From Escherichia phage vB_EcoM_WL-3, in the sequence record MT968995.1: 64,000 bases of DNA; one strand, 5' to 3'. Of this stretch, positions 2,097 to 26,686 are shown in pieces. Under the pieces are notes generated by a model. That model did not search any database and had not been told where the DNA came from. It saw only the letters and a list, made by a program, of their open reading frames with translations. The position numbers and the translations under genes are program-made. Positions within the stretch are counted from its first letter, which is position 1. Each line of letters opens with the position of its first letter.

Positions 2097-3101
2097 TTAA
2101 CTTACCAATTCAATCCAAGCCGGACGAAGTACATCTTGTACCATTTTAACTAATTCCTTTTTAACCAAAGAAGGATTATCTGCTTGAGTTAGAGTAATAC
2201 CTTCACGAGAAGTTTCTTCCAAAATATCTTGAACAGTTAGTCCCATCACCTTTCCAAAATCCTTCGGACCAATTTCACCAATTTTAGAAATAACGTTATT
2301 TACTCGGTTCAGTGTAACGTAGCAAGCTAAAATTCCCACCAATTTGTTATCAGCTTCTGATAGTTCAACTTTAGCTTTAATAGGCTTATCAGACTTTTTC
2401 TTTTCACTAAATTTGGAATTCTTGCATTTGATGGCTACACGATTTCCATTATGAAGCCAAGAAGGATAACAAGGTTTCAATACATATCCTTCAGCGGTAA
2501 ATACTTCGCCTTTGGCTTCAGCTTTCCAAACACATTTGTTAGCGTCAACTAATCCAGCATGGTCTACTGTAAAATTATAATCTTGGACGACAGAATCTAA
2601 ATCATTTGGCAATTTAATAAGTTCTTCAAATTTACCACGACCTAAAAGTGGAGCCATTTTAAATTTAAATGTATTACAAAATGATTCCATCATATAATCA
2701 TCGACATAAGTCACATCACCACTTTCTGTAGTGACAATAATGTCAAATACATAAAAATCTTTATCGCCATAATCGACATTCTTCTGAATGCCAGGTCCAG
2801 CGAATTCGCCAAAGACTTGATAAGATACAACCGCCGAAGTTTCCATAATATCTTGTACTGCTTTAATAGAATCTTCGTAATTCTTTAGAATAATTTCATG
2901 CCCAAAGAAATCTTCAGCAGGAAGAATCGGTCCAGTACGTTTAGCGCAAGTTACTTTATCACGCTCAATAATCAATGAGAAATTTGTGCCGTGAATCTTT
3001 TCACGAGCTACCCACTCCCCACCAGTCAATCCCAAGCTATAAAGTTTTTCAATGAATTTAGAATTGTAATGATTTTCAAGACTGCTATACTTTTTAAACA
3101 T
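2097..3101 (-). CDS. rnlB: RNA ligase 2 (Rnl2)
   Basis: 334-aa ORF; N-terminal KIHGTN ligase motif I (lysine nucleotidyltransferase); size matches T4 Rnl2. Confidence 0.9.
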
Positions 3102-15916: not shown

Positions 15917-15969
15917 CCTCATGTTATGTCAGTAAGATTATTATAACACAATACGAGGGACTTGTAAAC
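15917..15969 (-). promoter_or_regulatory. T4-type early promoter cassette upstream of alt.-3
   Basis: On the - strand: GTTTAC (-35) then TTATAAT (-10); near-identical copy at 31688-31740 upstream of alc. Confidence 0.5.
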
Positions 15970-18026
15970 TACATCTTGAACTTTTTAGACATTCCGTTGA
16001 TGTTAACCAAAGAAGCTAAGATTTGAGAAACTTCGTTTTCCTCTTCTTTTGATTCTTCTACAAGGAATTGATTAAACCCAGCCATTGGACGAACTTCACC
16101 AGTTTCCATCAGATGATCGCCATCATATACCGATTCTTCTAATTGTTCAGAAGGAGGAACGATTGTACCTTCGATTAAATACTTGTTATAAGCAGTTTCT
16201 TTCATCATGTACGTGCTCACTTTATTAATCTTCAGCAAAATTCCACGTGGTAAAATAACTTCAGCTTCTGACGTAAATCCTGATAAATGACCCGGAACGA
16301 TAACTTTGATTCGCTCAGCTCCTTTAATTACCATACCCACGCTAGTTTCAGCATCTTCATTCGCATAAGCAGAATGACTGCCCATATGCATCAAATCTTC
16401 TGCGTCAATTGAACCTTCTCCTTCACCAGAAAATACTGCACTGGAATCATCTAGAGCCATATAGTTTTTACCATACTCACCGAAGATATTTGGTTTAAGC
16501 GATGTGGATACGAAGTTCTTAAAATAGAACATTTTATTTTCAATATTATGACGTAAAGTTTTAAAGGTAACTTCTTGGCCACGGTAAAGCGTAGTTCCTG
16601 GAGGAAGAACTGATCCTTTGGCAAAAGCAGAATCCATCGTCTCGATGTGTTTAATAGCTCGTTCCATATATTCTTCACGAGTAGAATCCGGTTTACCTAA
16701 AAGGAACGAGTTCATTTCAACATATGAATCTGCGCAATAATCTTCAATTACATCAGACTCAGCCCGAGTTAATCCTTTTGGGGGTACTTCAGTACTTGCA
16801 TATTCATACGCTTGAGAAGCAGACTCATTAATCAATTTATAAATGCCATTCATGACAAATTGAATAATAGCTACCTTTTCATCTGGCGTGGCTTTAGAAC
16901 CTTTAACTAAATCATTGACAATTTTCTTAATAACATCAAAGCTATTAGAAATATTAATGTCAGCAAGATCGCTTAAAATTTTATCAGTTTTATAATCAAA
17001 AAATTCTTTATTCTTTAAATATTCTTGAGAACCTTGATGTGTTATATCGCTCTGCAGTCTGATAGACGGATCACGTAAACGTGCATGGGCCAATGCAATA
17101 TGATTTCGGAAGCTTTTTAGTTCATAATCACTAGATTTAAAACGAGAAGCACTCCTCATACCACCGATAGCTCCTTTGCCGAAGTTTGAACCAATCTGAA
17201 TAACGCCAGAGTTCATTGGTCCTTCTGCTTTATATACCGGAACTTTAGATTCAAACTCTTGATATTTCTTAGCAGCGAAACTATCGCCCTGAAGTGAAGC
17301 ATCGACAGTAGAGTATTGAGCTTGTGCTGCTAATCGACGACTAATTTTAGTTTTCTGAATAACAGCTTGATCCGTGCGCTTATCATTTTCTAAAGCAATA
17401 GAAGCGGCAACAGCAACAGCTTTAGGAACAGCATTACCTGTTTTAACGTCTACATAAACATCACCAACCTTTGATTCAACTTTTGTGAATAACTCAGTTG
17501 AAATAGGAGGTACACCTGGAATGTCTTCTAAATTGGCATTTTTACGGTAAACCATAATATATGCATACTTTTTATCGTAATCCCAGATTTCCTTTAAAAG
17601 AACATATCGACCTGCTCCTTTAGTACGTACTAAACGGTCAGCAATAACTTGAATTTGTCGAGCTGCGCCATTTGTTTTACTCTTTAGTACGCGGAACAGG
17701 CATGCGTCAATTTTATACTGTTTCATTGTTTGAAGAGCAGTATCAAAAACCGCATTAATAACACCAATTGGATTTCCACCCAAGTTTTTAAGTTTAACTA
17801 ATGATAGTTTCTCATTGACACCTATCATTACGATATGCATCATTTTATCGCCTGGCTTAACGTTTTTATTTGTATCACCGCCAGAGGTGTATGTGCAAAA
17901 TCTAAATCCAGGAAGCACGCTTTCTTCACCGGCTTGAATAGCAAAAATTTGAGGTATTTTATGCTTAGGATTTAAGTTAACAACCGGCGCCGAAGCGCCG
18001 TCAAATAATTCTGTAATAAGTTCCAT
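15969..18026 (-). CDS. Alt-family ADP-ribosyltransferase paralog
   Basis: 685-aa ORF; N-terminus MELITELFD shared with Alt; C-terminal ART motifs YRGQ, FVSTSL, EAEVILP. Confidence 0.8.
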   Translation of the reverse strand: MELITELFDGASAPVVNLNPKHKIPQIFAIQAGEESVLPGFRFCTYTSGGDTNKNVKPGDKMMHIVMIGVNEKLSLVKLKNLGGNPIGVINAVFDTALQTMKQYKIDACLFRVLKSKTNGAARQIQVIADRLVRTKGAGRYVLLKEIWDYDKKYAYIMVYRKNANLEDIPGVPPISTELFTKVESKVGDVYVDVKTGNAVPKAVAVAASIALENDKRTDQAVIQKTKISRRLAAQAQYSTVDASLQGDSFAAKKYQEFESKVPVYKAEGPMNSGVIQIGSNFGKGAIGGMRSASRFKSSDYELKSFRNHIALAHARLRDPSIRLQSDITHQGSQEYLKNKEFFDYKTDKILSDLADINISNSFDVIKKIVNDLVKGSKATPDEKVAIIQFVMNGIYKLINESASQAYEYASTEVPPKGLTRAESDVIEDYCADSYVEMNSFLLGKPDSTREEYMERAIKHIETMDSAFAKGSVLPPGTTLYRGQEVTFKTLRHNIENKMFYFKNFVSTSLKPNIFGEYGKNYMALDDSSAVFSGEGEGSIDAEDLMHMGSHSAYANEDAETSVGMVIKGAERIKVIVPGHLSGFTSEAEVILPRGILLKINKVSTYMMKETAYNKYLIEGTIVPPSEQLEESVYDGDHLMETGEVRPMAGFNQFLVEESKEEENEVSQILASLVNINGMSKKFKM

Positions 18027-18029
18027 GAT

Positions 18030-20126
18030 TTATCCTTGAACGAACTTGTAAGGCATGTTTGTAATATCTATGCAAGACGCAATAATTCCGAGAGATGATT
18101 CTGCTTTCTGTTTAACATTTGATGAAACAAATGATGCAAAGTCAACTCTGTCTTCTATTTCAATATCACCTGTCATTGCAACTACTTCACCAGTTTCCAT
18201 TAAATGGTCTCCATCATAAATTACTGATTCGGTGAGTTCTTCTGTAGTCATAACTTCAGATTGAATGAGTTTTGTATTATTAGATGTTGTTCCGTCATTA
18301 TTAGAAGCATCAGTTATTTTATTAACTTTGACCATCAATCCGCGCGGTAGAATAACTTCAGCTTCTGTTGCTATTCCGAGACTTCCTGGATATACAACAT
18401 TAACTTTATGAGCTCCATCAATTGCCCATCCTATTTGAACTTTAACGTATTCAGGATTTTCTTTATACGCTCTTATTTCGTTTGGATTAATAGTTATTCC
18501 TTCTTCATTTTTATCAACTGTCAATTCATTACGAGCTTCTGGTTCTAAAAGACCAATACCAGCATGTGTAATTCCAAAACGTCCAAAAATGATAGGAGTT
18601 AAAGAAGTAGATACAAAATTTCTGAAATAGAACACTTTATTTTTAACTAGTGCTTCGTATATAGGAGCAGTCATACTTTGAGCACGATAAACTGTAATGC
18701 CTTCTGGTATACGGTCACCATTTTCAAAAGCTGAATCTAAGTTATTTATAGCAGATTCAATTTCTTTTTCACTCATTACATCATATCGTTCTGGATTGTA
18801 ACGACCCAAAAGAAGATTATTGATGTCAGTATATCCTGAACCACAATACTCTCTAATGCCGCGCTTTTGTGATGGAGTATATTTAGAACCATCACGGGCA
18901 ATAGTAATATCAATCATTGGACCTGCACCAATTCCAGAAAAACTATAAATCATTCGTTTGAGGAATTTAGTTTTTGCTGCGTTCCAGGAATTTTTAGTTA
19001 TTTCTTCCCAGACTTCATCTGGCTGTCCTTTACGGGTTTTATTATGTTTATCAAGCCAAGTATCTTTATATTCTTCAAAGAATTTATTAACAGCTGCTGC
19101 GTATTTCTCTAAACATTTTATTGAAGTAGTTGGTTCATTTTTAATCGCATTAAGAATTACATCTTTAATTTTTTCAGAAACTTCATTAACCTCACTTTTT
19201 GAAAAGAATTTATAGTCATAGTGAAGTTCATCTGCGGTTCCTTCGGCAATGATTTTTGCTGCCTTAGTTTTAGAAGCTAATGAATTAATTCCAAGCTTCA
19301 TTTCTTCTGCTTCGGGAATTAAAGGAGCTGTAGCAGGTTTATTGAAATTAGCTGCAGTAGATTCATACTTCTGGAATAATTCGCTTTCAAATCTAGAAGA
19401 TTCTAATGATTGACTTTGCGCAATTGCTCTACGGGAAATTTTAACTTTAACAATAACAGCTTGGTCAGAACGTTTATCATTTTCTTGTGCAATAGATGCT
19501 GCAATTGCCTCATTTTTAGTTACTTGAGCTCCAGTATCTTTATTGATATAAACATCGCCGACTTTCGATTCAACTTTAGTAAAGAGCTCGGTACTAATTT
19601 CCGGAACTCCTGGAATGTCTTCTAGTGATACATTTTTGCGATGTATAAGAATATATGCATACTTTTTATCGTAATCCCAGAGTTCCTTAAGAAGGACGTA
19701 TCTGCCACCTGAACGACTACGAATAAGTCTATCAGCAATAACTTGAATTTGTCGAGCTTGACCAGCAGTTTTAGACTTAAGAATACGGAGCATACAGGCA
19801 TCAATTTTATACTGACGCATCGTCTGCATTGCAACAGTAAAAACTGAATTGATATAATTAATTGGGCTTGGACCGAGACCTTTTAATTTAGCAATTGAAC
19901 CTTTAGCAGTTAATGTAAAAGGAACAATATGCATCATTTTATCGCCCATTTTTAAATCGCGATTAGTATCACCTCCAGATGTATAGGTACATAAACGAAA
20001 GCCTGGTTGTTCAATTGCGTCATCGACATGAACTGAAAAAATTTGTGGTATTTTCTTCTTTGGATTTAAGTTTGTAATCGGAAGAGTAGTATCTTCGTCA
20101 AATAATTCTGTAATGAGTTCCATCAT
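18030..20126 (-). CDS. alt: Alt, ADP-ribosyltransferase packaged in the head
   Basis: 698-aa ORF (alternative ATG at 20123); motifs YRAQ, FVSTSL, EAEVILP; T4 position next to gene 30. Confidence 0.85.
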   Translation of the reverse strand: MMELITELFDEDTTLPITNLNPKKKIPQIFSVHVDDAIEQPGFRLCTYTSGGDTNRDLKMGDKMMHIVPFTLTAKGSIAKLKGLGPSPINYINSVFTVAMQTMRQYKIDACMLRILKSKTAGQARQIQVIADRLIRSRSGGRYVLLKELWDYDKKYAYILIHRKNVSLEDIPGVPEISTELFTKVESKVGDVYINKDTGAQVTKNEAIAASIAQENDKRSDQAVIVKVKISRRAIAQSQSLESSRFESELFQKYESTAANFNKPATAPLIPEAEEMKLGINSLASKTKAAKIIAEGTADELHYDYKFFSKSEVNEVSEKIKDVILNAIKNEPTTSIKCLEKYAAAVNKFFEEYKDTWLDKHNKTRKGQPDEVWEEITKNSWNAAKTKFLKRMIYSFSGIGAGPMIDITIARDGSKYTPSQKRGIREYCGSGYTDINNLLLGRYNPERYDVMSEKEIESAINNLDSAFENGDRIPEGITVYRAQSMTAPIYEALVKNKVFYFRNFVSTSLTPIIFGRFGITHAGIGLLEPEARNELTVDKNEEGITINPNEIRAYKENPEYVKVQIGWAIDGAHKVNVVYPGSLGIATEAEVILPRGLMVKVNKITDASNNDGTTSNNTKLIQSEVMTTEELTESVIYDGDHLMETGEVVAMTGDIEIEDRVDFASFVSSNVKQKAESSLGIIASCIDITNMPYKFVQG

Positions 20127-20146
20127 ATCCTCTCTAGTGTTTATTC

Positions 20147-20154
20147 TATTTATA
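20147..20154 (-). promoter_or_regulatory. Late promoter (TATAAATA) for alt
   Basis: TATAAATA on the - strand about 20 nt upstream of the alt ATG, followed by AGAGAGGA RBS. Confidence 0.5.
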
Positions 20155-20162
20155 AAATTAAA

Positions 20163-20174
20163 GGCCCGAAGGCC
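20163..20174. terminator. Palindromic hairpin between the 62-aa ORF and alt
   Basis: ggcc-cgaa-ggcc hairpin with flanking A/T runs. Confidence 0.4.
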
Positions 20175-20175
20175 T

Positions 20176-20364
20176 TTAATAATCTAATGGTAAGAGAGTA
20201 CGGTATATTTCAAACTTTGGCCCTTTTTCATAGGCATCAAATGTTTCTGTAAATTTATTATAAGCATATGCATCTACAAATTCGAGAACGATTTGTGATA
20301 CAGAAGTAGAAACATCTCCACCTTCTTTTTGAGCCACGACAATTGTTTCTAAGTAAGCTTTCAT
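20176..20364 (-). CDS. Small acidic protein between gene 30 and alt
   Basis: 62-aa ORF with ATGA overlap with the gene 30 stop. Confidence 0.5.
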   Translation of the reverse strand: MKAYLETIVVAQKEGGDVSTSVSQIVLEFVDAYAYNKFTETFDAYEKGPKFEIYRTLLPLDY

Positions 20365-21824
20365 AGACCAGTTACCTCATGAAAATCACCAAATACATCC
20401 TCGAATGTATTAGCTTTTGTTTTATCTTCACGCAAACGAATCGCAATTGGAAGAAATAATTTAACGTAATCAGTGCGACCATCAGATTTTAACCAACCGT
20501 TGCATTCGCACTCTAGAATTTTTCCAATATAATAATTTTGGTTTTCCATAATGCGAGTACGGTCAAGTTCATGTGATTTTACACCGGCTTTATCTTTTAA
20601 GCCTGAACCTGCATTTACTTTAATTTTTCCACACTCTGATTCAAGAATAAATCCACCCGCTTTAGTAGGGTCTTTACGGTGAGGATAAATTCCTACAATT
20701 TTTAAATCAACATCAATTACTTCTTTAAATTTATAGAGATTTTTTGAACGAGCATTTTCCCACAATCCATCGGTATTTTTGAGAATAATACCTTCAAGAC
20801 CCTGGTCAATATACTTTTTATAAATTACCTTAGCTTCATCTAGGTTATTTACTACCTGGTTTTCAATTAAAATTACTTTATCATATCCTGATGTCATTTG
20901 TTCTAGTTTAGAAAAACGTACATCATATTTTAAACGAAACGCCGGAAGACCGTATATTTCTACCAACGGGACATAATCCCAGACCTGAAACTTCATGCAT
21001 TTGGCTTCTTTTTCGGAAATGGTTCCTTTTAAGGATTTATTGGCGATTCCATTAGAAGCAGTACGAGATTCCGCTACTTCGGCGAATTCTTTAGCTTTAC
21101 TAATTTCAGGATAAGCATCAAAAAGAAAATCTAGGCCTTCTGGTTCCTTTTTAACTTGCTCATGGTATACCAATTCACCATCAATTAACACACCTTCTGG
21201 ATGAATCTGGCGGGCTTCAGCAGTCATTTTGATTAACTCTTCCTTAAGAAGATCTAATCCTAGATATTCATTACCAGCTCGTGATAAAAGACGAACATCA
21301 TCTAATTCATCACCTCGGACTTCAGCAAAACACCGAGCTCCATCTGCTTTTAACTGCGCAAAAGCTGGAAACTTGATATTCTTACTAATGCCTTTTTCAT
21401 CATAAGAACTTGCTAGCATTTGAGGTTGTTCAGGAATTAAACCTGGCCAAACTTTGTTTGCAATAGATACTGAAGCACCGCATTCAAGGTCTCGCATCAT
21501 AACTCGACGCAAAACTTCAACATCATCCTTTTTACCATCAGTGATATATCCAGTTAATTCCTCAATTGCAGCATTTCCAGTCAATTTCCGAGTAGCTAAC
21601 GTGAATTCAATGAAGTCAAGCATATCGGTAATAGTCAGCATTCCAAAACTCTGGGTAGCAATACCAGGTTTAGGCCATTTCTTGATATAATACTGTAACC
21701 CACGAGAATAAGTCAGACGATATACTCGTTTAAGCAATTCATTATTTTTATTCTTTTCAAGAATTGCTTGCTTCTGTTTAGTTGATCCAATAGATGCTAT
21801 TTCATTCAGAATTTTAAGAATCAT
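20361..21824 (-). CDS. 30: ATP-dependent DNA ligase gp30
   Basis: 487-aa ORF; KADGAR adenylation motif (lysine nucleotidyltransferase motif I). Confidence 0.95.
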   Translation of the reverse strand: MILKILNEIASIGSTKQKQAILEKNKNNELLKRVYRLTYSRGLQYYIKKWPKPGIATQSFGMLTITDMLDFIEFTLATRKLTGNAAIEELTGYITDGKKDDVEVLRRVMMRDLECGASVSIANKVWPGLIPEQPQMLASSYDEKGISKNIKFPAFAQLKADGARCFAEVRGDELDDVRLLSRAGNEYLGLDLLKEELIKMTAEARQIHPEGVLIDGELVYHEQVKKEPEGLDFLFDAYPEISKAKEFAEVAESRTASNGIANKSLKGTISEKEAKCMKFQVWDYVPLVEIYGLPAFRLKYDVRFSKLEQMTSGYDKVILIENQVVNNLDEAKVIYKKYIDQGLEGIILKNTDGLWENARSKNLYKFKEVIDVDLKIVGIYPHRKDPTKAGGFILESECGKIKVNAGSGLKDKAGVKSHELDRTRIMENQNYYIGKILECECNGWLKSDGRTDYVKLFLPIAIRLREDKTKANTFEDVFGDFHEVTGL

Positions 21825-22090
21825 TGTTCATCCTTCAGAGTTTGATTTACATCTCTATTATAAATCAATTCATCATTAAGCTCAGGCAAAGACTTATGAT
21901 ATGTCGTTCTAACTTTATTTCCTTGCATCCAGTGCTTGACGTAAATGAAACCTTGCTCTACACATTTTTTAAAAATTCGTTCATCCTTTTGAGCACGGAA
22001 CTCTGGATTGCATCTAAAAAATTGATTTACGTGACCATAATCACGTGTAGTATTACCTTCATTTTCATAAATAGTATGAACAACAAACAT
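21821..22090 (-). CDS. 30.1: Small protein (30.1 position)
   Basis: 89-aa ORF. Confidence 0.55.
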   Translation of the reverse strand: MFVVHTIYENEGNTTRDYGHVNQFFRCNPEFRAQKDERIFKKCVEQGFIYVKHWMQGNKVRTTYHKSLPELNDELIYNRDVNQTLKDEQ

Positions 22091-22929
22091 TAGAATGCTC
22101 CTTGAAAAATATTATCACCACTAGTAGGTCTATTATACAAATACTCTATGCCACCAGGTTTAATATAGTTCCATGTCTGAAACGGATGTGTCTGATATGG
22201 ATGATATGGATGATTATAAGGATTTAATCCAGGCGTTCTCCAGGTAGTGTTCCAAGGAAAAGAATCGTTTTTAACCATCTTCTCAATTAAATCTTTTATA
22301 GCTTTTTCACTATCAAAACTTTCTTTATTTTCCTTCGGCGAAAAAAGCTTATTTTCTACATCATTCCATGTATAAACTCGCTGCGCAGTTTTTGGAATAT
22401 TGTCACGCTCTCCTCGAGCCATCCAATAAACTGGAACATTTAATATTTCACTCGCATGATCGCAGTGATGAGCGAGATCGTCAATATAACAAATTACGTT
22501 ATATTTCTCTTTTGCCTTTTTGAACAGCTCTTCTTTTGAAGAATCATGACCACACATCATTACTTCTGAGAAGGCACCAGGAAAAAGAGCGTTCAAATTA
22601 AATTGACGATTCAACAGAGCGTCAATAGAATCACCCAATGCTGTAACAGCTACAAAATTATAATCTTCTTTTAATTTGTTAATTACACACAGGGCATCTT
22701 TATACGGAGACAAGTAACGAATAAAATCTGAACGATTGTATTTTTCAATTAACTTGACGCCAAGTTCTTCGTCACAATTAAAGAGTTTACCTGGAGAAAT
22801 AAATTTCTCATCTTGGATCATTTTTAAAATATGTTCTAATGGAAGATTATATTTCTGAGCAAAATAAGGAAGGCCTGATTGCCAGCTTAAACATACTCCA
22901 TCAATATCAGTCAAAATAGTTGGCTTCAT
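22090..22929 (-). CDS. 30.2: HAD-superfamily phosphatase-like protein (30.2 position)
   Basis: 279-aa ORF; N-terminal LTDIDGV (HAD motif I DxDG); Pro/Tyr-rich C-terminus. Confidence 0.6.
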   Translation of the reverse strand: MKPTILTDIDGVCLSWQSGLPYFAQKYNLPLEHILKMIQDEKFISPGKLFNCDEELGVKLIEKYNRSDFIRYLSPYKDALCVINKLKEDYNFVAVTALGDSIDALLNRQFNLNALFPGAFSEVMMCGHDSSKEELFKKAKEKYNVICYIDDLAHHCDHASEILNVPVYWMARGERDNIPKTAQRVYTWNDVENKLFSPKENKESFDSEKAIKDLIEKMVKNDSFPWNTTWRTPGLNPYNHPYHPYQTHPFQTWNYIKPGGIEYLYNRPTSGDNIFQGAF

Positions 22930-23390
22930 AGAGAGTCTCTTAATAGGTTTAACACATCAATAAATTCAGCTTCGGTTAGTATTGTATCATCTTTTGTTAG
23001 ACCACTAGCCATGCTGTGCTTCAAAACTTTTCCTTTCGAGGCTTGTAATGCATTGCGAAATCCCTTGTTTTGGATCGCTGCTTCAAAATATGCATTTGTG
23101 TATAATTCTTTCCATGCTTCGGAATATCTTGAAAACGGAGTTCCAAGCCAGAACAACGTGCCACGGTCCTGAGCTCTTGCATAAGACCTTCCAGCTTGTT
23201 GGGCGGCAAGCCCGGATAACCCAAATATACGACGTTGGTGTTCAACATTTTTCACCTTACACCCTTGGAGGAATCCTTCGAGACCTCCAAATTGAATACC
23301 ATCCATAACGAAAGGCCATTGGGCGAAATTACTTAATGCACATGATGGCCATTTAAAATTGCTTCTTATCTCTAGCTCAGACATTTTCAA
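22926..23390 (-). CDS. 30.3: NADAR (YbiA/DUF1768)-like protein (30.3 position)
   Basis: 154-aa ORF; SNFAQWPF...DG and EGFLQG segments resemble the YbiA/NADAR family signature. Confidence 0.55.
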   Translation of the reverse strand: MKMSELEIRSNFKWPSCALSNFAQWPFVMDGIQFGGLEGFLQGCKVKNVEHQRRIFGLSGLAAQQAGRSYARAQDRGTLFWLGTPFSRYSEAWKELYTNAYFEAAIQNKGFRNALQASKGKVLKHSMASGLTKDDTILTEAEFIDVLNLLRDSL

Positions 23391-23583
23391 TACTTATAAT
23401 TTCAACATCAGCCCAATGACCATAGCAAGGAAGACGAAATTCAACTGGCCAGTTAGGGTCCTTTTCTAATATAATAGACTGAACTTGTGGCTCTTCATAT
23501 TCATCGGTATACGGACCTTTATACGTTACTTTATATGTGACCTTAATGTACTGAATTCCAAAAATCTTATTAATTATATTCAT
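23377..23583 (-). CDS. 30.4: Small protein (30.4 position)
   Basis: 68-aa ORF. Confidence 0.5.
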   Translation of the reverse strand: MNIINKIFGIQYIKVTYKVTYKGPYTDEYEEPQVQSIILEKDPNWPVEFRLPCYGHWADVEIISIENV

Positions 23584-23777
23584 ACTAATTCCTTTAATCC
23601 GTAAATAGGAGATAATTCATCGCCCATACGAAGGTCTTCATTTCCATCTACCCAGGAAACAATATAAGCCTCTTTTATTTGAATACCACTCCATTTAAAT
23701 GGAGGTAGAACCTTAGAAATTAATCCAGGTATACCAACTCCCTTTAATTCAACAGTTTGACCCAAAAAGAATTTCAT
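23580..23777 (-). CDS. 30.5: Small protein (30.5 position)
   Basis: 65-aa ORF. Confidence 0.5.
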   Translation of the reverse strand: MKFFLGQTVELKGVGIPGLISKVLPPFKWSGIQIKEAYIVSWVDGNEDLRMGDELSPIYGLKELV

Positions 23778-24064
23778 TAGAACCTCATCTGAAAACCATG
23801 CGATTTAACATTACCACCACCAATGTCAGAAATATTAATTTCACGCGCAATTGAAGGGTCAATGTCAATTTCACGATTGAGTTTAATGATTGCTAGAGTA
23901 TCACGTCCATTTACAGTACGGAACTCTAAAGGACATACTACATTAACGTAGTTTTTAATCGATTCACTGGTAGGCTGCAAATGAGCAGGAATGTCTTTAG
24001 GCGCCTTAGAGAAAACCACTTCACAGAAATTTTTACGGGTATCAAAATAAGTAGTCATAAACAT
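23777..24064 (-). CDS. 30.6: Small protein (30.6 position)
   Basis: 95-aa ORF preceded by the hairpin-GAGGAAAAT-ATG motif. Confidence 0.55.
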   Translation of the reverse strand: MFMTTYFDTRKNFCEVVFSKAPKDIPAHLQPTSESIKNYVNVVCPLEFRTVNGRDTLAIIKLNREIDIDPSIAREINISDIGGGNVKSHGFQMRF

Positions 24065-24105
24065 AGTATTTTCCTCAGTAAGGGGCCGAAGCCCCTCATT
24101 TTATT

Positions 24106-24483
24106 TTAAATATCAAATTCGTTAAGAACTACATCAAAGATCGCTTCAAGATGCTCAGGTTTAGCTCTGTTACTCAGAATATGACGAATCCAAGTTTTAA
24201 CCAGAAGCTTACGATTGACGCCATTCCAGCAAGGATGAGTCCCTAAATCACGTTGACGGAAATCATCATCTAATGCGATTTTAAAAGAAGAACCTTCTTT
24301 CGTGATTGAAACCGTGATGCCATTTTCAAATCGCATATAAACGTAGTTAGGAGTCATATACTGTTCAATTTCGCATACTGATCCATTTTGATGTTTCCAA
24401 AGACAGATAGTATCAATAGAACCTGCAATACCGTTAGAAACATATTTACGTTCAAAGTTGATGTAGTTCATTTTATTCTCCAA
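24106..24483 (-). CDS. 30.7: Small protein (30.7 position)
   Basis: 125-aa ORF downstream of an early promoter with stem-loop at 24495-24536. Confidence 0.55.
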   Translation of the reverse strand: MENKMNYINFERKYVSNGIAGSIDTICLWKHQNGSVCEIEQYMTPNYVYMRFENGITVSITKEGSSFKIALDDDFRQRDLGTHPCWNGVNRKLLVKTWIRHILSNRAKPEHLEAIFDVVLNEFDI

Positions 24484-24538
24484 GATGTTTAATTGCGGTA
24501 CAGGTATATAATATCATATCCTGTACCAAAGTAAACAA

Positions 24539-24871
24539 TTATTTTACTACTTTCCAGTGCTGCATGTCAAGTTTACCAACTTTTTTCATCTTCTCAATTA
24601 AGCGTTCTGCACGTTGGCGAGCTGTAACATAATACCATTCACCTAATTCATTTTGTTCAATTTTTCCAACGATTACTGTATTCAATTCATAAATCCAACC
24701 AGTAAAGAAATTATGAACTTGAATTGTAAAGGTGAAATCTGTTCCCATACCTTCTGTTGTTTCTACTTCAATAATATCACCTTCAACTGCCATTAAGAAC
24801 CACATAGTTTCGTTATATTCACCATTGAAACATTTAGCTTTAACCGCAGCGTTCAGATTAATCGTTTTCAT
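24539..24871 (-). CDS. 30.8: Small protein (30.8 position)
   Basis: 110-aa ORF; early promoter (GTTTAC at 24923-24928) upstream. Confidence 0.55.
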   Translation of the reverse strand: MKTINLNAAVKAKCFNGEYNETMWFLMAVEGDIIEVETTEGMGTDFTFTIQVHNFFTGWIYELNTVIVGKIEQNELGEWYYVTARQRAERLIEKMKKVGKLDMQHWKVVK

Positions 24872-24981
24872 TTTATTCTCCTTTGTTTGTGTAAGATAAT
24901 ACTATCACAAAGGAACCATACTGTAAACAACTTTGTGCAATCTTTGGAAAATAAAAAAGGACTCCCGAAGGAGTCCTCAAC

Positions 24982-25158
24982 TTATGCTTTCTGCTTACCA
25001 AAACGAGAAGCATCATCTCGAAGAACCGCACGTGCTCGGCGCATGATCTTCTCAACAGTTTGATTGATACGAGAGTTCGACCCACGCTTGTAACCAGCGC
25101 GTTTAGAATCACCAACTTTCTTTTCAACTGCTTTCTTTGCTTTAGCTTGTTTTGCCAT
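24982..25158 (-). CDS. 30.9: Small basic Lys/Arg-rich protein (30.9 position)
   Basis: 58 aa from ATG 25158 (MAKQAKAKKAVEKK...); the ORF-track start at 25200 has no RBS. Confidence 0.45.
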   Translation of the reverse strand: MAKQAKAKKAVEKKVGDSKRAGYKRGSNSRINQTVEKIMRRARAVLRDDASRFGKQKA

Positions 25159-25352
25159 TATAAATTCTCTTTTAAATGAAAATGCAGGACTTATTGGCAT
25201 TGCCTGCGAAAGCCCTCAAGGGGTACTTAGGTTTTGAATATTTACCGGCAGGATAACCATAAACCTCGTCAACATTCAAGAGGTACACCGTAAAACAAAG
25301 TTCGACGGCTCCTCGATTTTAGCTCACACTAAGGCAGTGAATCTCCAATAAA

Positions 25353-25601
25353 TTACTTCAGTGTTACCACAAAGTGACGAACTGCTTTTCGTGCAGCAGA
25401 AGCCAGAGGCTTAGCATATTTAAGTTCATCTTTTTCCTGGAGCTCAGCAGCTAATGCAGTTTGAGCAGGATTCAGATGTTTGAAATAACGCAGGATTTCA
25501 AGGGCTTCGGCTTCAACATCAATAGATGCGCCATAGTTTTCGTGACCATTATTCCATGCGTTTCGTTGCAGTTCAAGAGCGTGTTGTAATTGTTTAATCA
25601 T
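25353..25601 (-). CDS. rIII: rIII lysis inhibition accessory protein
   Basis: 82-aa ORF between gene 30 module and gene 31; T4 size and position. Confidence 0.8.
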   Translation of the reverse strand: MIKQLQHALELQRNAWNNGHENYGASIDVEAEALEILRYFKHLNPAQTALAAELQEKDELKYAKPLASAARKAVRHFVVTLK

Positions 25602-25748
25602 TTAAAAATTCTCGTTAGAGATTAAAACTCGGTAGTCACGTTCTTCTGAATTTCATCTTCTTTCGACAGATCTCTCAGTTGTAGACTACCACATAGAATT
25701 GTTCGGTTAACTTATTATTCCGACACCCAATTCATATTATTATTTATA

Positions 25749-26084
25749 TCACTTATAAAGACACGGAATAGCTTTATAGTGACAAGTAACGAATTTTTGT
25801 TTAATTTCTTTTGGCTGCTTAAGACCCAGAGCTACAAAAGGATGCGGAACGTTTCGAATTTGACCAACTGGAAGAGAAGTCAAATCACCAACTTCGCAGA
25901 AACCTTCAGGAACATCAGGACCAACAGAGTGAACTACGCACAGTTCAGGAACTTCGCCTTGAACACGTTTACCGATAATAAGTCCTGATTCTGTAACTTC
26001 TTCATCACCGGCTTGTGCAGGTTCAGAAACTAAAATAACGTATTCACCGACAGCACGAATTGGTAGCTGTTGTACTTCAGACAT
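25749..26084 (-). CDS. 31: gp31 co-chaperonin (GroES analogue)
   Basis: 111-aa ORF; T4 size and position. Confidence 0.9.
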
Positions 26085-26114
26085 CGTTTTTCCTTTTTGT
26101 TAACAGATGAATTA

Positions 26115-26141
26115 ATAATAACAAATAATTCTTAAAGCATT
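26115..26141 (-). promoter_or_regulatory. MotA-dependent middle promoter for gene 31
   Basis: On the - strand: MotA box AATGCTTTA, about 12-nt spacer, TATTAT. Confidence 0.4.
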
Positions 26142-26449
26142 TATTTACCAATAAATTGAAGTAAATGCTCAACTTTCATGCCATTAACGGAAATCAATTT
26201 GTCAATAGAAAAACCTCGCCATGCACCAAGCTCAACATCAAATACTGGAATCATATCAGTAGATTCTTTCCGAGTAGATTCAGTCAATTTACCGGTTTGC
26301 ATGGTTGGCATAAAGTCTGCATCACGAGTACCTTTCATAGTACGAATAGTACCATCAGACTTTTCAAAAACCACGTTTGAAATACCCATGGACAATTTAG
26401 TTTTCAAAATTTCACGAATTGCTACTTTTTGCTCAGTCGTCAGTTTCAT
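26141..26449 (-). CDS. 31.1: Small protein (31.1 position)
   Basis: 102-aa ORF. Confidence 0.55.
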   Translation of the reverse strand: MKLTTEQKVAIREILKTKLSMGISNVVFEKSDGTIRTMKGTRDADFMPTMQTGKLTESTRKESTDMIPVFDVELGAWRGFSIDKLISVNGMKVEHLLQFIGK

Positions 26450-26686
26450 TTATTTACCTATCACAGTTTTAATATGGGTTGTTCCACGTTCTTTAAGAGT
26501 GGAAAGCAATTTTTGGCATTTTTCTAAATCAGATTTCCAACTATACGGTCTATCAATACAAACCCATTCTGACTTATAATACTGCTTCCATTTAGAGAAA
26601 AAATATTTCTTATACTCTACAGCAAATGAAATGTTCTCGTTAGAATAAGAACTAATTGCTGTGAGTTGTACCAAACGAAATTTCAT
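26450..26686 (-). CDS. 31.2: Small protein (31.2 position)
   Basis: 78-aa ORF. Confidence 0.5.
   Translation of the reverse strand: MKFRLVQLTAISSYSNENISFAVEYKKYFFSKWKQYYKSEWVCIDRPYSWKSDLEKCQKLLSTLKERGTTHIKTVIGK

What the first reader, a model, noticed from the sequence alone, without database searches (positions are those of the whole stretch)
22090..23390. NADAR-like and HAD-phosphatase-like genes in the same early region as the ADP-ribosyltransferases
The 154-aa ORF (22926-23390) has SNFAQWPF...DG and EGFLQG segments reminiscent of YbiA/NADAR proteins, a family linked to NAD/ADP-ribose chemistry. The adjacent 279-aa ORF starts with the HAD motif I (LTDIDGV). Together with the two Alt enzymes about 3 kb away and pseT, rnlA and rnlB further along, this region concentrates nucleotide, ADP-ribose and RNA-end processing activities that could tune or reverse ADP-ribosylation or counter host nucleic-acid-modifying defences.
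Basis: inference. Interest (0 to 1): 0.45.

Follow-up and report, generated by a model that had tools for sequence, protein, structure and literature searches.

The report
T4 adfN NADAR plus HAD phosphatase
These two genes are phage T4 genes 30.3 and 30.2: 30.3 is the already published AdfN enzyme, which strips ADP-ribose off phage DNA to defeat the bacterial DarTG1 defence, and 30.2 is an uncharacterised, dispensable HAD-type phosphatase that published data show is not needed for that job.

Summary
The window comes from a T4-like phage (Tequatrovirus; 99.2% identical to phage EP01 across this region). Both ORFs are real, and both family guesses hold.

**30.3 (22926-23384, minus strand, 152 aa).**
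- It starts at the ATG, not at the TTG at 23390.
- It is 96% identical to T4 gp30.3, which was renamed AdfN in 2025.
- T4 gp30.3 is an experimentally shown NADAR-family DNA ADP-ribosylglycohydrolase that reverses DarT1 guanine ADP-ribosylation.
- The window allele is full length and keeps E36, K43, H123 and the C-terminal helix.
- Its model matches only the three solved NADAR structures.

**30.2 (22090-22929, minus strand, 279 aa).**
- Pfam and NCBIfam give no hit.
- The closest known family is the 5'(3')-deoxyribonucleotidases.
- Its substrate is unknown.

**What is not supported.** The suggested link between the two genes, and with Alt, does not hold.
- In published T4 transposon data under DarTG1, 30.3 is lost (log2FC -7.25), while 30.2 (-0.12) and alt (-0.01) are unaffected.
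- Only 21 of 80 diverse viral loci with a 30.3 homolog have 30.2 nearby, and 14 of 80 have alt nearby.

**Verdict.** This is a correct rediscovery of known biology. Interest is low.

The parts
22926..23384 (-). Gene 30.3 / adfN: 152-aa phage NADAR, a DNA ADP-ribosylglycohydrolase that acts as an anti-DarTG1 factor
   Evidence: PF08010 2.6e-68. 96% identical and full length against T4 gp30.3. AF2 pLDDT 93.4. The only credible PDB fold matches are YbiA 2b3w, PnNADAR 8bau and GlNADAR 8bat. Function of the T4 ortholog: PMC11825919 and PMC11125620.
23277..23279 (-). Codon for E36 (GAA), a catalytic glutamate of AdfN
   Evidence: Read from the sequence. Invariant in 36 homologs. T4 AdfN E36A gave only partial rescue of RB69 in plaque assays, and the paper calls it catalytically inactive in its in-vitro assay.
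23256..23258 (-). Codon for K43 (AAG), an ADP-ribose-contacting lysine of AdfN
   Evidence: Read from the sequence. Invariant. K43A gives only partial rescue in T4 AdfN.
23016..23018 (-). Codon for H123, the histidine that replaces the YbiA-family Glu / DarG1 Asp in the last strand of phage NADARs
   Evidence: Invariant in the alignment. It directly follows the modelled strand 120-122. Described as the phage-NADAR signature in PMC11125620, PMC11543638 and PMC12945103.
22929..22973 (-). Last 15 codons of 30.3 (aa 138-152), encoding the C-terminal helix (aa 138-151) that is lost in the inactive RB69 allele
   Evidence: Helix 138-151 in the model. Intact against T4. Truncation of the last 15 residues reduces activity.
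22090..22929 (-). Gene 30.2: 279-aa HAD-superfamily phosphatase-like protein, substrate unknown
22345..22929 (-). HAD catalytic core with helical C1-type cap (aa 1-195). Motif I D8-I-D10-G-V, motif II T96, motif III K132, motif IV D150-D151. W16 lies at the position of the cdN Phe in the motif I alignment.
   Evidence: Family alignment. Model secondary structure. Profile alignment to cdN 2jao, E 0.019.
22090..22344 (-). Variable C-terminal tail of gp30.2 (aa 196-279). Most of it is low-confidence and probably disordered, with one modelled helix (aa 207-220). It ends in the conserved peptide GGIEYLYNRPT (aa 259-269).
   Evidence: pLDDT below 50 for residues 224-279. The tail is absent or divergent in many homologs. 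The peptide recurs 6-10 residues from the C-terminus in 17 homologs.
22926..22929 (-). ATGA overlap of the 30.3 stop with the 30.2 start, suggesting translational coupling
   Evidence: Sequence. Same arrangement in T4 and in close relatives.
23377..23384 (-). Overlap of the 30.4 stop codon with the 30.3 start codon (ATGTCTGA)
   Evidence: Sequence. ORF list. T4 annotation.

Best explanation
The region holds the T4 early genes 30.3 and 30.2. They sit in a tightly packed run of same-strand genes (30.7 to 30) with overlapping stop and start codons.

**30.3 (AdfN).**
- It is a minimal, core-only NADAR enzyme.
- When a host DarT1 toxin ADP-ribosylates guanine bases in phage DNA, AdfN hydrolyses the guanine-ADP-ribose bond and releases ADP-ribose. 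Replication can then proceed.
- It acts as an orphan, antitoxin-like eraser without binding the toxin.
- This mechanism is shown for the T4 ortholog. It is inferred for this allele from 96% identity, full length and intact catalytic residues.

**30.2.**
- It is a separate enzyme: a Mg2+-dependent HAD phosphomonoesterase.
- Inferred roles of the residues: Asp8 as nucleophile, Asp10 as general acid/base, Thr96 and Lys132 binding phosphate, Asp150/Asp151 binding Mg2+.
- A helical cap closes over a small substrate, most likely a (deoxy)nucleoside monophosphate, as in the 5'(3')-deoxyribonucleotidases.
- It is dispensable in the laboratory and is not part of the anti-DarTG1 mechanism.

Proximity to the two alt genes is inherited gene order, not a writer/eraser pairing.
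For: **Identity.**
- Tequatrovirus context.
- 96% and 97% identity to T4 gp30.3 and gp30.2.

**NADAR assignment of 30.3.**
- PF08010 at 2.6e-68.
- The family profile finds YbiA as the only PDB sequence hit, E 0.0019.
- Model pLDDT 93.4.
- The only credible fold matches are the three NADAR structures.
- E36, K43 and H123 are invariant.

**Function of the T4 ortholog.**
- T4 lacking adfN becomes DarTG1-sensitive. Ectopic AdfN rescues RB69. Purified protein removes ADP-ribose from DarT1-modified DNA. E36A and K43A gave only partial rescue in vivo.
- In vitro it hydrolyses guanine-ADPr but not thymine-ADPr.
- T4 transposon insertions in 30.3 are lost under DarTG1, log2FC -7.25.

**HAD assignment of 30.2.**
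- Conserved motifs I-IV.
- Confident model with a helical insertion between motifs I and II.
- Foldseek gives 111 hits at E <= 1e-3, and every listed match is a HAD-superfamily enzyme. Deoxyribonucleotidases have the lowest rmsd.
- The top profile-to-PDB hit is cdN 2jao, E 0.019, aligning DxDGV and W16 to Phe.
- A distant family member hits Pfam NT5C at 8.7e-5.

**Independence of the two genes.**
- 30.2 is neutral under DarTG1 (log2FC -0.12, p 0.61, 71 sites) and in M9 (-0.10), and is non-essential.
- 59 of 80 diverse 30.3 loci lack 30.2 within 4 kb.
Against: **30.3.**
- This exact allele differs from T4 at 6 of 152 residues and has not been assayed.
- Published work shows AdfN-T4 works fully only during T-even infection, for unknown reasons. 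The mechanism is therefore incomplete.

**30.2.**
- No curated profile (Pfam, NCBIfam) recognises it.
- The link to NT5C is marginal: E 0.019, and a sub-threshold bridging hit.
- No phenotype is known in any condition examined.
- The ATGA overlap and the tight adjacency in T-even phages could still reflect some shared role that pooled transposon screens miss.
Confidence: 0.85

Rival explanations
1. gp30.2 is the missing T-even-specific partner of AdfN. It would process the released ADP-ribose or otherwise enable AdfN, so that 30.3 and 30.2 form a two-gene anti-DarTG module.
For: The 30.3 stop overlaps the 30.2 start (ATGA). 30.2 lies immediately downstream in all close T4 relatives. The AdfN paper proposes that an additional T-even protein may be required. 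RB69, which ectopic AdfN rescues, has a 30.2 homolog.
Against: T4 transposon insertions in 30.2 are neutral under DarTG1 (log2FC -0.12, p 0.61, 71 sites), while 30.3 is at -7.25. In 59 of 80 diverse loci with a 30.3 homolog, no 30.2 lies within 4 kb. In a 167,034-bp contig the same length as Klebsiella phage KPV15, the 30.3 homolog sits at about 78 kb, whereas KPV15 carries 30.2 at about 136 kb. If the two are the same genome, the genes are about 58 kb apart.
Confidence: 0.07
2. The NADAR enzyme is the eraser for the phage's own Alt ADP-ribosyltransferases, so that the cluster tunes ADP-ribosylation of host proteins.
For: Two Alt paralogs lie within about 3-7 kb on the same strand. Both activities involve ADP-ribose.
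Against: All tested NADARs, including T4 gp30.3, act on guanine-ADPr in nucleic acids. Alt modifies proteins: RNA polymerase alpha per the T4 record, on arginine residues from my own knowledge. alt insertions are neutral under DarTG1. alt lies within 4 kb of 30.3 in only 14 of 80 loci.
Confidence: 0.03
3. gp30.2 is a polynucleotide-end phosphatase, a PseT-like 3'-phosphatase that works with the adjacent DNA ligase in nick or end healing.
Against: The match to Pnkp covers only the about 125-residue HAD core. The profile comparison with the window's own PseT aligns motif I only, probability 13%. gp30.2 has an about 70-residue helical cap between motifs I and II. From my own knowledge of HAD cap classes, this typifies small-molecule HAD enzymes rather than cap-less macromolecule phosphatases.
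Confidence: 0.08
4. gp30.2 is a catalytically dead HAD-fold scaffold or binding protein.
For: No phenotype in any published condition examined. It has a long tail, largely predicted disordered, with a conserved terminal peptide that suggests protein docking.
Against: All catalytic motif residues are invariant or nearly so across a family that reaches 34% identity.
Confidence: 0.04

Closest known systems
T4 AdfN (gp30.3), the phage NADAR family (Pfam PF08010 Phage_30_3)
   Same: 96% identical over all 152 residues. Same genomic position between 30.4 and 30.2. Same catalytic E36, K43 and H123, and an intact C-terminal helix.
   Different: Six substitutions relative to T4 (K11R, H49Q, T82V, E89P, N111D, M125I, written window-to-T4). 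None falls at an invariant position.
DarG1 antitoxin NADAR of DarTG1 systems (for example Geobacter lovleyi, PDB 8bat)
   Same: Same fold and same reaction, removal of ADP-ribose from guanine.
   Different: 30.3 is an orphan with no adjacent darT. It has the core domain only, without the N-terminal extension. It carries His in place of the DarG1 Asp in the last strand. It cannot replace DarG1 in uninfected cells.
E. coli YbiA (PDB 2b3w) / Pfam NADAR PF08719
   Same: Best structural match (Foldseek E 1.4e-5, TMq 0.66) and the only PDB sequence hit (E 0.0019). Shares the SNFA-WP and E-x-F-Q-x-x-K motifs.
   Different: No direct PF08719 hit. His replaces the YbiA-family Glu. YbiA does not protect against DarT1 in cells.
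5'(3')-deoxyribonucleotidases cdN/mdN (Pfam NT5C PF06941; PDB 2jao, 2i7d, 1q92, 3bwv)
   Different: No Pfam NT5C hit for gp30.2 itself. Identity is only 16-21%. gp30.2 carries an extra 85-residue tail. Its activity is untested.
T4 PseT (Pnkp) 3'-phosphatase domain
   Same: HAD core and DxDGT-type motif I. Encoded in the same window.
   Different: It lacks the cap, and only motif I aligns. It is not a close paralog.

Membership tests
NADAR superfamily (for 30.3) | YbiA fold: an alpha-helical core flanked by small beta-sheets | tested here: met
   AF2 model pLDDT 93.4. The only credible PDB matches are 2b3w, 8bau and 8bat.
NADAR superfamily (for 30.3) | Conserved catalytic Glu and Lys that contact ADP-ribose | tested here: met
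   E36 and K43 are present and invariant in 36 homologs. The residues are defined by mutagenesis in T4 AdfN.
NADAR superfamily (for 30.3) | [quoted passage not shown] | tested here: met
   H123 is invariant and directly follows modelled strand 120-122. The signature is described.
NADAR superfamily (for 30.3) | Detectable sequence relation to YbiA/DUF1768 | tested here: met
   Family profile against PDB finds YbiA at E 0.0019. Homolog P0174 carries both PF08010 and PF08719. The protein alone gives no direct PF08719 hit.
NADAR superfamily (for 30.3) | Guanine-ADP-ribose glycohydrolase activity | not testable with these tools
   Shown for the 96%-identical T4 protein in vitro and in vivo.
AdfN / Phage_30_3 (PF08010) | Full-length match, including the C-terminal helix needed for full activity | tested here: met
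   PF08010 2.6e-68 over model positions 1-138. 152 of 152 residues align to T4. Helix 138-151 in the model.
DarTG1 toxin-antitoxin system | NADAR gene encoded next to a darT ADP-ribosyltransferase toxin gene | tested here: not met
   The neighbours are 30.4 and 30.2. The nearby ART genes are Alt-type PF03496, not DarT. It is an orphan eraser.
HAD superfamily (for 30.2) | Rossmann-like HAD core fold | tested here: met
HAD superfamily (for 30.2) | Motif I DxDx(T/V), with nucleophile Asp and Asp+2 | tested here: met
   D8-I-D10-G-V. D8, D10 and G11 are invariant.
HAD superfamily (for 30.2) | Motif II Thr/Ser, motif III Lys, motif IV acidic pair | tested here: met
   T96 (T or S), K132 invariant, D150-D151 at least 90% conserved.
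HAD superfamily (for 30.2) | Mg2+-dependent phosphoryl transfer activity | not testable with these tools
   I found no biochemical data. A search for gp30.2 in the literature returned nothing.
NT5C 5'(3')-deoxyribonucleotidase family (for 30.2) | Significant match to the curated family model (PF06941) | tested here: not met
   No Pfam hit at E <= 10. Only a distant relative, P0347, reaches 8.7e-5, below the gathering score.
NT5C 5'(3')-deoxyribonucleotidase family (for 30.2) | Sequence or structure closer to NT5C than to other capped HAD enzymes | tested here: inconclusive
   Top profile hit is 2jao at E 0.019. NT5C members give the lowest rmsd and highest identity. Many other subfamily-I HADs score a similar Z.
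NT5C 5'(3')-deoxyribonucleotidase family (for 30.2) | Aromatic residue 8 positions after the nucleophile Asp | tested here: met
   The invariant W16 aligns with the Phe of cdN in DGVLADFESGL. That this Phe stacks on the base in cdN/mdN is from my own knowledge.

The most novel reading that the evidence does not exclude
gp30.2 could be a dedicated nucleotide phosphatase with a counter-defence or pool-cleaning role that standard laboratory screens miss. One example would be destroying ADP-ribosylated or otherwise modified (d)GMP, or a nucleotide-derived immune signal. Its conserved C-terminal peptide (GxGIEYLxxQ/RPT) on a largely disordered tail could dock it onto a T4 replication or dNTP-synthesis complex. 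It might even contribute to the unexplained T-even specificity of AdfN, in a way masked by redundancy in T4.
Probability: 0.08. Interest if true: 0.5.

Novelty: already known. Interest (0 to 1): 0.15.

Why it matters
That matches what was published between 2023 and 2025. It is a useful validation of the scan but adds no new biology.

Two things remain open:
- The substrate and role of gp30.2. It is a conserved HAD phosphatase found in about 1,400 sequenced T4-like phages. It has no curated family model and no known phenotype.
- The reason AdfN works only during T-even infection.

The analysis here narrows the second question. It argues that gp30.2 and Alt are not the missing factor.

Tried and rejected
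1. **Direct Pfam and NCBIfam scans for NADAR or HAD.** There was no direct hit for either protein, even at E <= 10. This is not a refutation, because family profiles and structure models recover both folds.
2. **Single-sequence search against PDB.** It gave only a weak YbiA hit for 30.3 (E 0.9) and noise for 30.2. Family profiles improved this.
3. **Hypothesis that 30.2 is AdfN's T-even-specific cofactor.**
   - I tested it against the published T4 transposon data and against synteny in 80 loci.
   - I rejected it as the main reading.
4. **Hypothesis that 30.2 is a PseT paralog.** hhalign aligned only motif I. Rejected.
5. **Literature searches for gp30.2.** There were zero papers for 'gp30.2', and a broader search returned only noise.
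6. **Promoter and terminator scan of 20000-26500.** Counts were no higher than in shuffled sequence, so it says nothing about co-transcription.
7. **Pfam scan of multidomain or distant 30.2 relatives.** It gave only sub-threshold HAD and NT5C hits and no informative fusion partner.
8. **Not done.**
   - I did not read the remaining HIDEN-SEQ condition tables (RexAB, RnlAB, DarTG2, other hosts) for 30.2.
   - I did not read the sheet header of the DarTG1 table. I identified it from the 30.3 value, the main text and the table spacing.
   - I did not examine the genomic contexts of the distant 30.2 relatives.
Full report
**What is in the sequence**

- The window is a T4-like myovirus genome segment. 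Positions 21800-23600 are 99.2% identical to Escherichia phage EP01 and at least 80% identical to hundreds of Tequatrovirus records.
- Gene order matches T4 from gene 29 through alt, 30, 30.1-30.9, rIII, 31, cd, pseT, alc and rnlA.
- The two ORFs of the finding lie on the minus strand. They correspond to T4 genes 30.3 and 30.2.
- The 154-aa ORF listed from a TTG at 23390 really starts at the ATG at 23384 (152 aa), as in T4.
  - That ATG overlaps the stop of gene 30.4.
  - The 30.3 stop overlaps the 30.2 start (ATGA at 22926-22929).
- The window proteins are 96% (146/152) and 97% (271/279) identical to T4 gp30.3 and gp30.2.
- The quoted motifs are present and are not chance.
  - ALSNF, E36, K43 and H123 are invariant in 36 diverse 30.3 homologs.
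  - D8, D10, G11 and K132 are invariant, and T96, D150 and D151 are nearly so, in 36 diverse 30.2 homologs.

**Gene 30.3**

- Pfam assigns it to PF08010 (Phage_30_3, 2.6e-68), not directly to NADAR PF08719.
- A profile of the family finds E. coli YbiA as the only significant PDB sequence hit (E 0.0019).
- A high-confidence model (pLDDT 93.4) matches only three solved structures with any credibility, and all three are NADAR enzymes:
  - YbiA 2b3w, E 1.4e-5;
  - Phytophthora NADAR with ADP-ribose, 8bau;
  - Geobacter lovleyi NADAR, 8bat, which describes as the DarG1 antitoxin.
- The function of the T4 ortholog is published.
  - Schuller et al. 2023 (PMC11543638) defined NADARs as guanine-ADP-ribose hydrolases. 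They noted that phage NADARs carry a histidine where YbiA has Glu and DarG1 has Asp.
  - PMC11125620 (2024) showed that T4 gp30.3 hydrolyses guanine-ADPr but not thymine-ADPr in vitro.
  - PMC11825919 (2025) renamed the gene adfN and showed the following:
    - It is necessary and sufficient for T-even resistance to DarTG1.
    - The E36A and K43A mutants gave only partial rescue.
    - The RB69 allele, which lacks the last 15 residues, is defective.
    - AdfN does not bind DarT1.
  - A 2025 preprint (10.1101/2025.11.20.689424) confirmed by transposon sequencing that 30.3 insertions are lost on a DarTG1 host.
- The window allele is full length. It keeps E36, K43, H123 and the C-terminal helix (aa 138-151). 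I therefore infer it is an active AdfN.

**Gene 30.2**

- Neither Pfam nor NCBIfam recognises it, even at E <= 10. PHROGs places it in phrog_420, of unknown function.
- All 100 homologs from the large protein database have cores at least 39% identical. Every source name they carry is a phage, apart from one record labelled Acinetobacter baumannii.
- The conserved part is the N-terminal 190-200 residues. The tail is variable or absent.
- The alignment shows the four HAD motifs:
  - D8-x-D10-G-V;
  - T96;
  - K132;
  - D150-D151.
- The model is confident for residues 1-195 (pLDDT above 90). It has a helical insertion of about 70 residues between motifs I and II, which is a C1-type cap. Most of the tail is low-confidence.
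- Foldseek gives 111 PDB matches at E <= 0.001, and every listed match is a HAD-superfamily enzyme. The 5'(3')-deoxyribonucleotidases (2jao, 2i7d, 4yih, 1q92, 3bwv) have the lowest rmsd and highest target TM-scores.
  - Many capped HAD enzymes score almost as well.
- The family profile's best PDB sequence hit is mouse cdN (2jao, E 0.019). The alignment pairs DvDGvlvkWqSGL with NMDGVLADFESGL. From my own knowledge, that Phe stacks on the base in cdN/mdN. In gp30.2 it is the invariant W16.
- A profile search of 1.84 billion representatives finds 1,435 relatives. One distant member reaches Pfam NT5C at 8.7e-5, just below threshold.
- Conclusion:
  - gp30.2 is a HAD phosphatase with high confidence.
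  - A nucleoside-monophosphate substrate is the best guess but is not established.
  - NT5C family membership fails the curated-model test.

**Are the two genes, or Alt, functionally linked?**

- The AdfN paper reports that AdfN works fully only during T-even infection and may need another T-even protein. The ATGA overlap made 30.2 an obvious candidate, so I tested this in two ways.
- *Published T4 transposon data.*
  - I used supplementary file 7 of the HIDEN-SEQ preprint. I identified the control-versus-DarTG1 table from the 30.3 value, the main text and the table spacing relative to the labelled S8 sheet.
  - That table gives these values:

    | Gene | log2FC | Statistics |
    |---|---|---|
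    | 30.3 | -7.25 | adj. p 0 |
    | 30.2 | -0.12 | p 0.61, 71 sites |
    | 30.1 | -0.01 | |
    | alt | -0.01 | |

  - 30.2 is also non-essential on K-12 (72 of 72 sites hit) and neutral in LB versus M9 (-0.10).
- *Synteny.*
  - Both genes are near-universal in cultured T4-like phages: 1,438 and 1,510 records, with matching host-genus distributions.
  - In 80 diverse IMG/VR loci carrying a 30.3 homolog, only 21 have a 30.2 homolog within 4 kb.
    - 13 of these are close T4 relatives with overlap or a 3-bp gap.
    - One has a 9-bp gap.
    - Six have 30.2 0.7-1.2 kb downstream.
    - One has it upstream.
  - The other 59 loci have none.
  - In a 167,034-bp contig the same length as Klebsiella phage KPV15, the 30.3 homolog sits at about 78 kb, whereas KPV15 carries 30.2 at about 136 kb.
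  - alt is within 4 kb in 14 of 80 loci and DNA ligase in 21 of 80.
- The clustering is therefore T4-lineage gene order. The genetic data argue against 30.2 or Alt taking part in the anti-DarTG1 function.
- A writer/eraser relation with Alt is also unlikely on chemical grounds. Every tested NADAR substrate is a base-linked ADP-ribose in nucleic acid. Alt modifies proteins: RNA polymerase alpha per the T4 record, on arginine residues from my own knowledge.

**Rival readings of gp30.2**

- *PseT-like end phosphatase working with the ligase.* This is disfavoured for three reasons:
  - gp30.2 has a cap.
  - hhalign against the window's own PseT aligns only motif I (probability 13%).
- *Dead scaffold.* This is disfavoured by the invariant catalytic residues.

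**Novelty and verdict**

- 30.3 is an already characterised anti-defence enzyme.
- HAD or phosphatase labels for 30.2 already appear in some GenBank records ('phosphatase', 'HAD protein', 'HAD-superfamily hydrolase').
- The proposed functional concentration with Alt, PseT and the RNA ligases is not supported.
- What remains unknown is the substrate and role of gp30.2, and the meaning of its conserved C-terminal peptide.
- Interest is low (0.15). Novelty: already known.

Noticed in passing
window 22123-22155 (aa 259-269 of gp30.2); homologs P0001-P0054: The otherwise divergent C-terminal tails of gp30.2 homologs, predicted disordered in the window protein, end in a conserved peptide, G-x-G-(I/V)-E-Y-L-x-x-(Q/R)-P-T. 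It lies 6-10 residues from the C-terminus in 17 of about 57 long-tailed homologs. It looks like a short docking motif, but the partner is unknown.
   Followed up: partly
window 15969-18026 and 18030-20126 (minus strand): There are two full-length Alt-type ADP-ribosyltransferase paralogs in tandem, 41% identical and both PF03496. T4 itself has only the remnants alt.-1 and alt.-2 at the position of the first. The second paralog is common: about 396 phage records at 95% identity or more.
   Followed up: yes
window 23377-23583 (gene 30.4, minus strand): In the published T4 transposon data under DarTG1, insertions in 30.4 are significantly depleted (log2FC -1.79, adj. p 0.014). The 30.4 stop overlaps the 30.3 start. 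This may be a polar effect on adfN rather than a function of 30.4, and the two are not distinguished.
   Followed up: no
homologs P0104-P0106, P0108, P0113, P0115, P0117, P0157: Many natural 30.3/adfN alleles in T4-like phages are truncated (86-126 aa) or fused to fragments of neighbouring genes (PF11097, PF06919, PF06019). Like the RB69 frameshift allele, this suggests frequent loss or disruption of this anti-DarTG1 gene in nature.
   Followed up: no
homolog P0015 (302 aa): This is a 30.2 core fused to a DUF3045 domain (gene 30.1 family) in place of the variable tail. It could be a natural fusion or a frameshift artefact joining the two adjacent genes.
   Followed up: no
window 23021-23248 (minus strand, 75-aa ORF inside 30.3 in another frame): This ORF corresponds to the T4 annotation 30.3', described there as an internal translation in a different frame within 30.3. 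I did not assess whether it is expressed or conserved as a coding frame.
   Followed up: no
window 24541-24570 and 24957-24978 (minus strand): A near-consensus sigma-70 promoter-like site (TTGACA-18-TAAAAT, 11/12) lies inside the 3' end of the 30.8 ORF, upstream of 30.7. A strong terminator-like hairpin (9 bp, then a T-run) lies upstream of 30.8. Overall promoter-like counts in the region are no higher than in shuffled sequence.
   Followed up: no
window 2097-3101 (minus strand): rnlB (RNA ligase 2; PF09414 plus PF18043) is present, but it lies about 20 kb from the finding on the opposite side from pseT and rnlA.
   Followed up: yes
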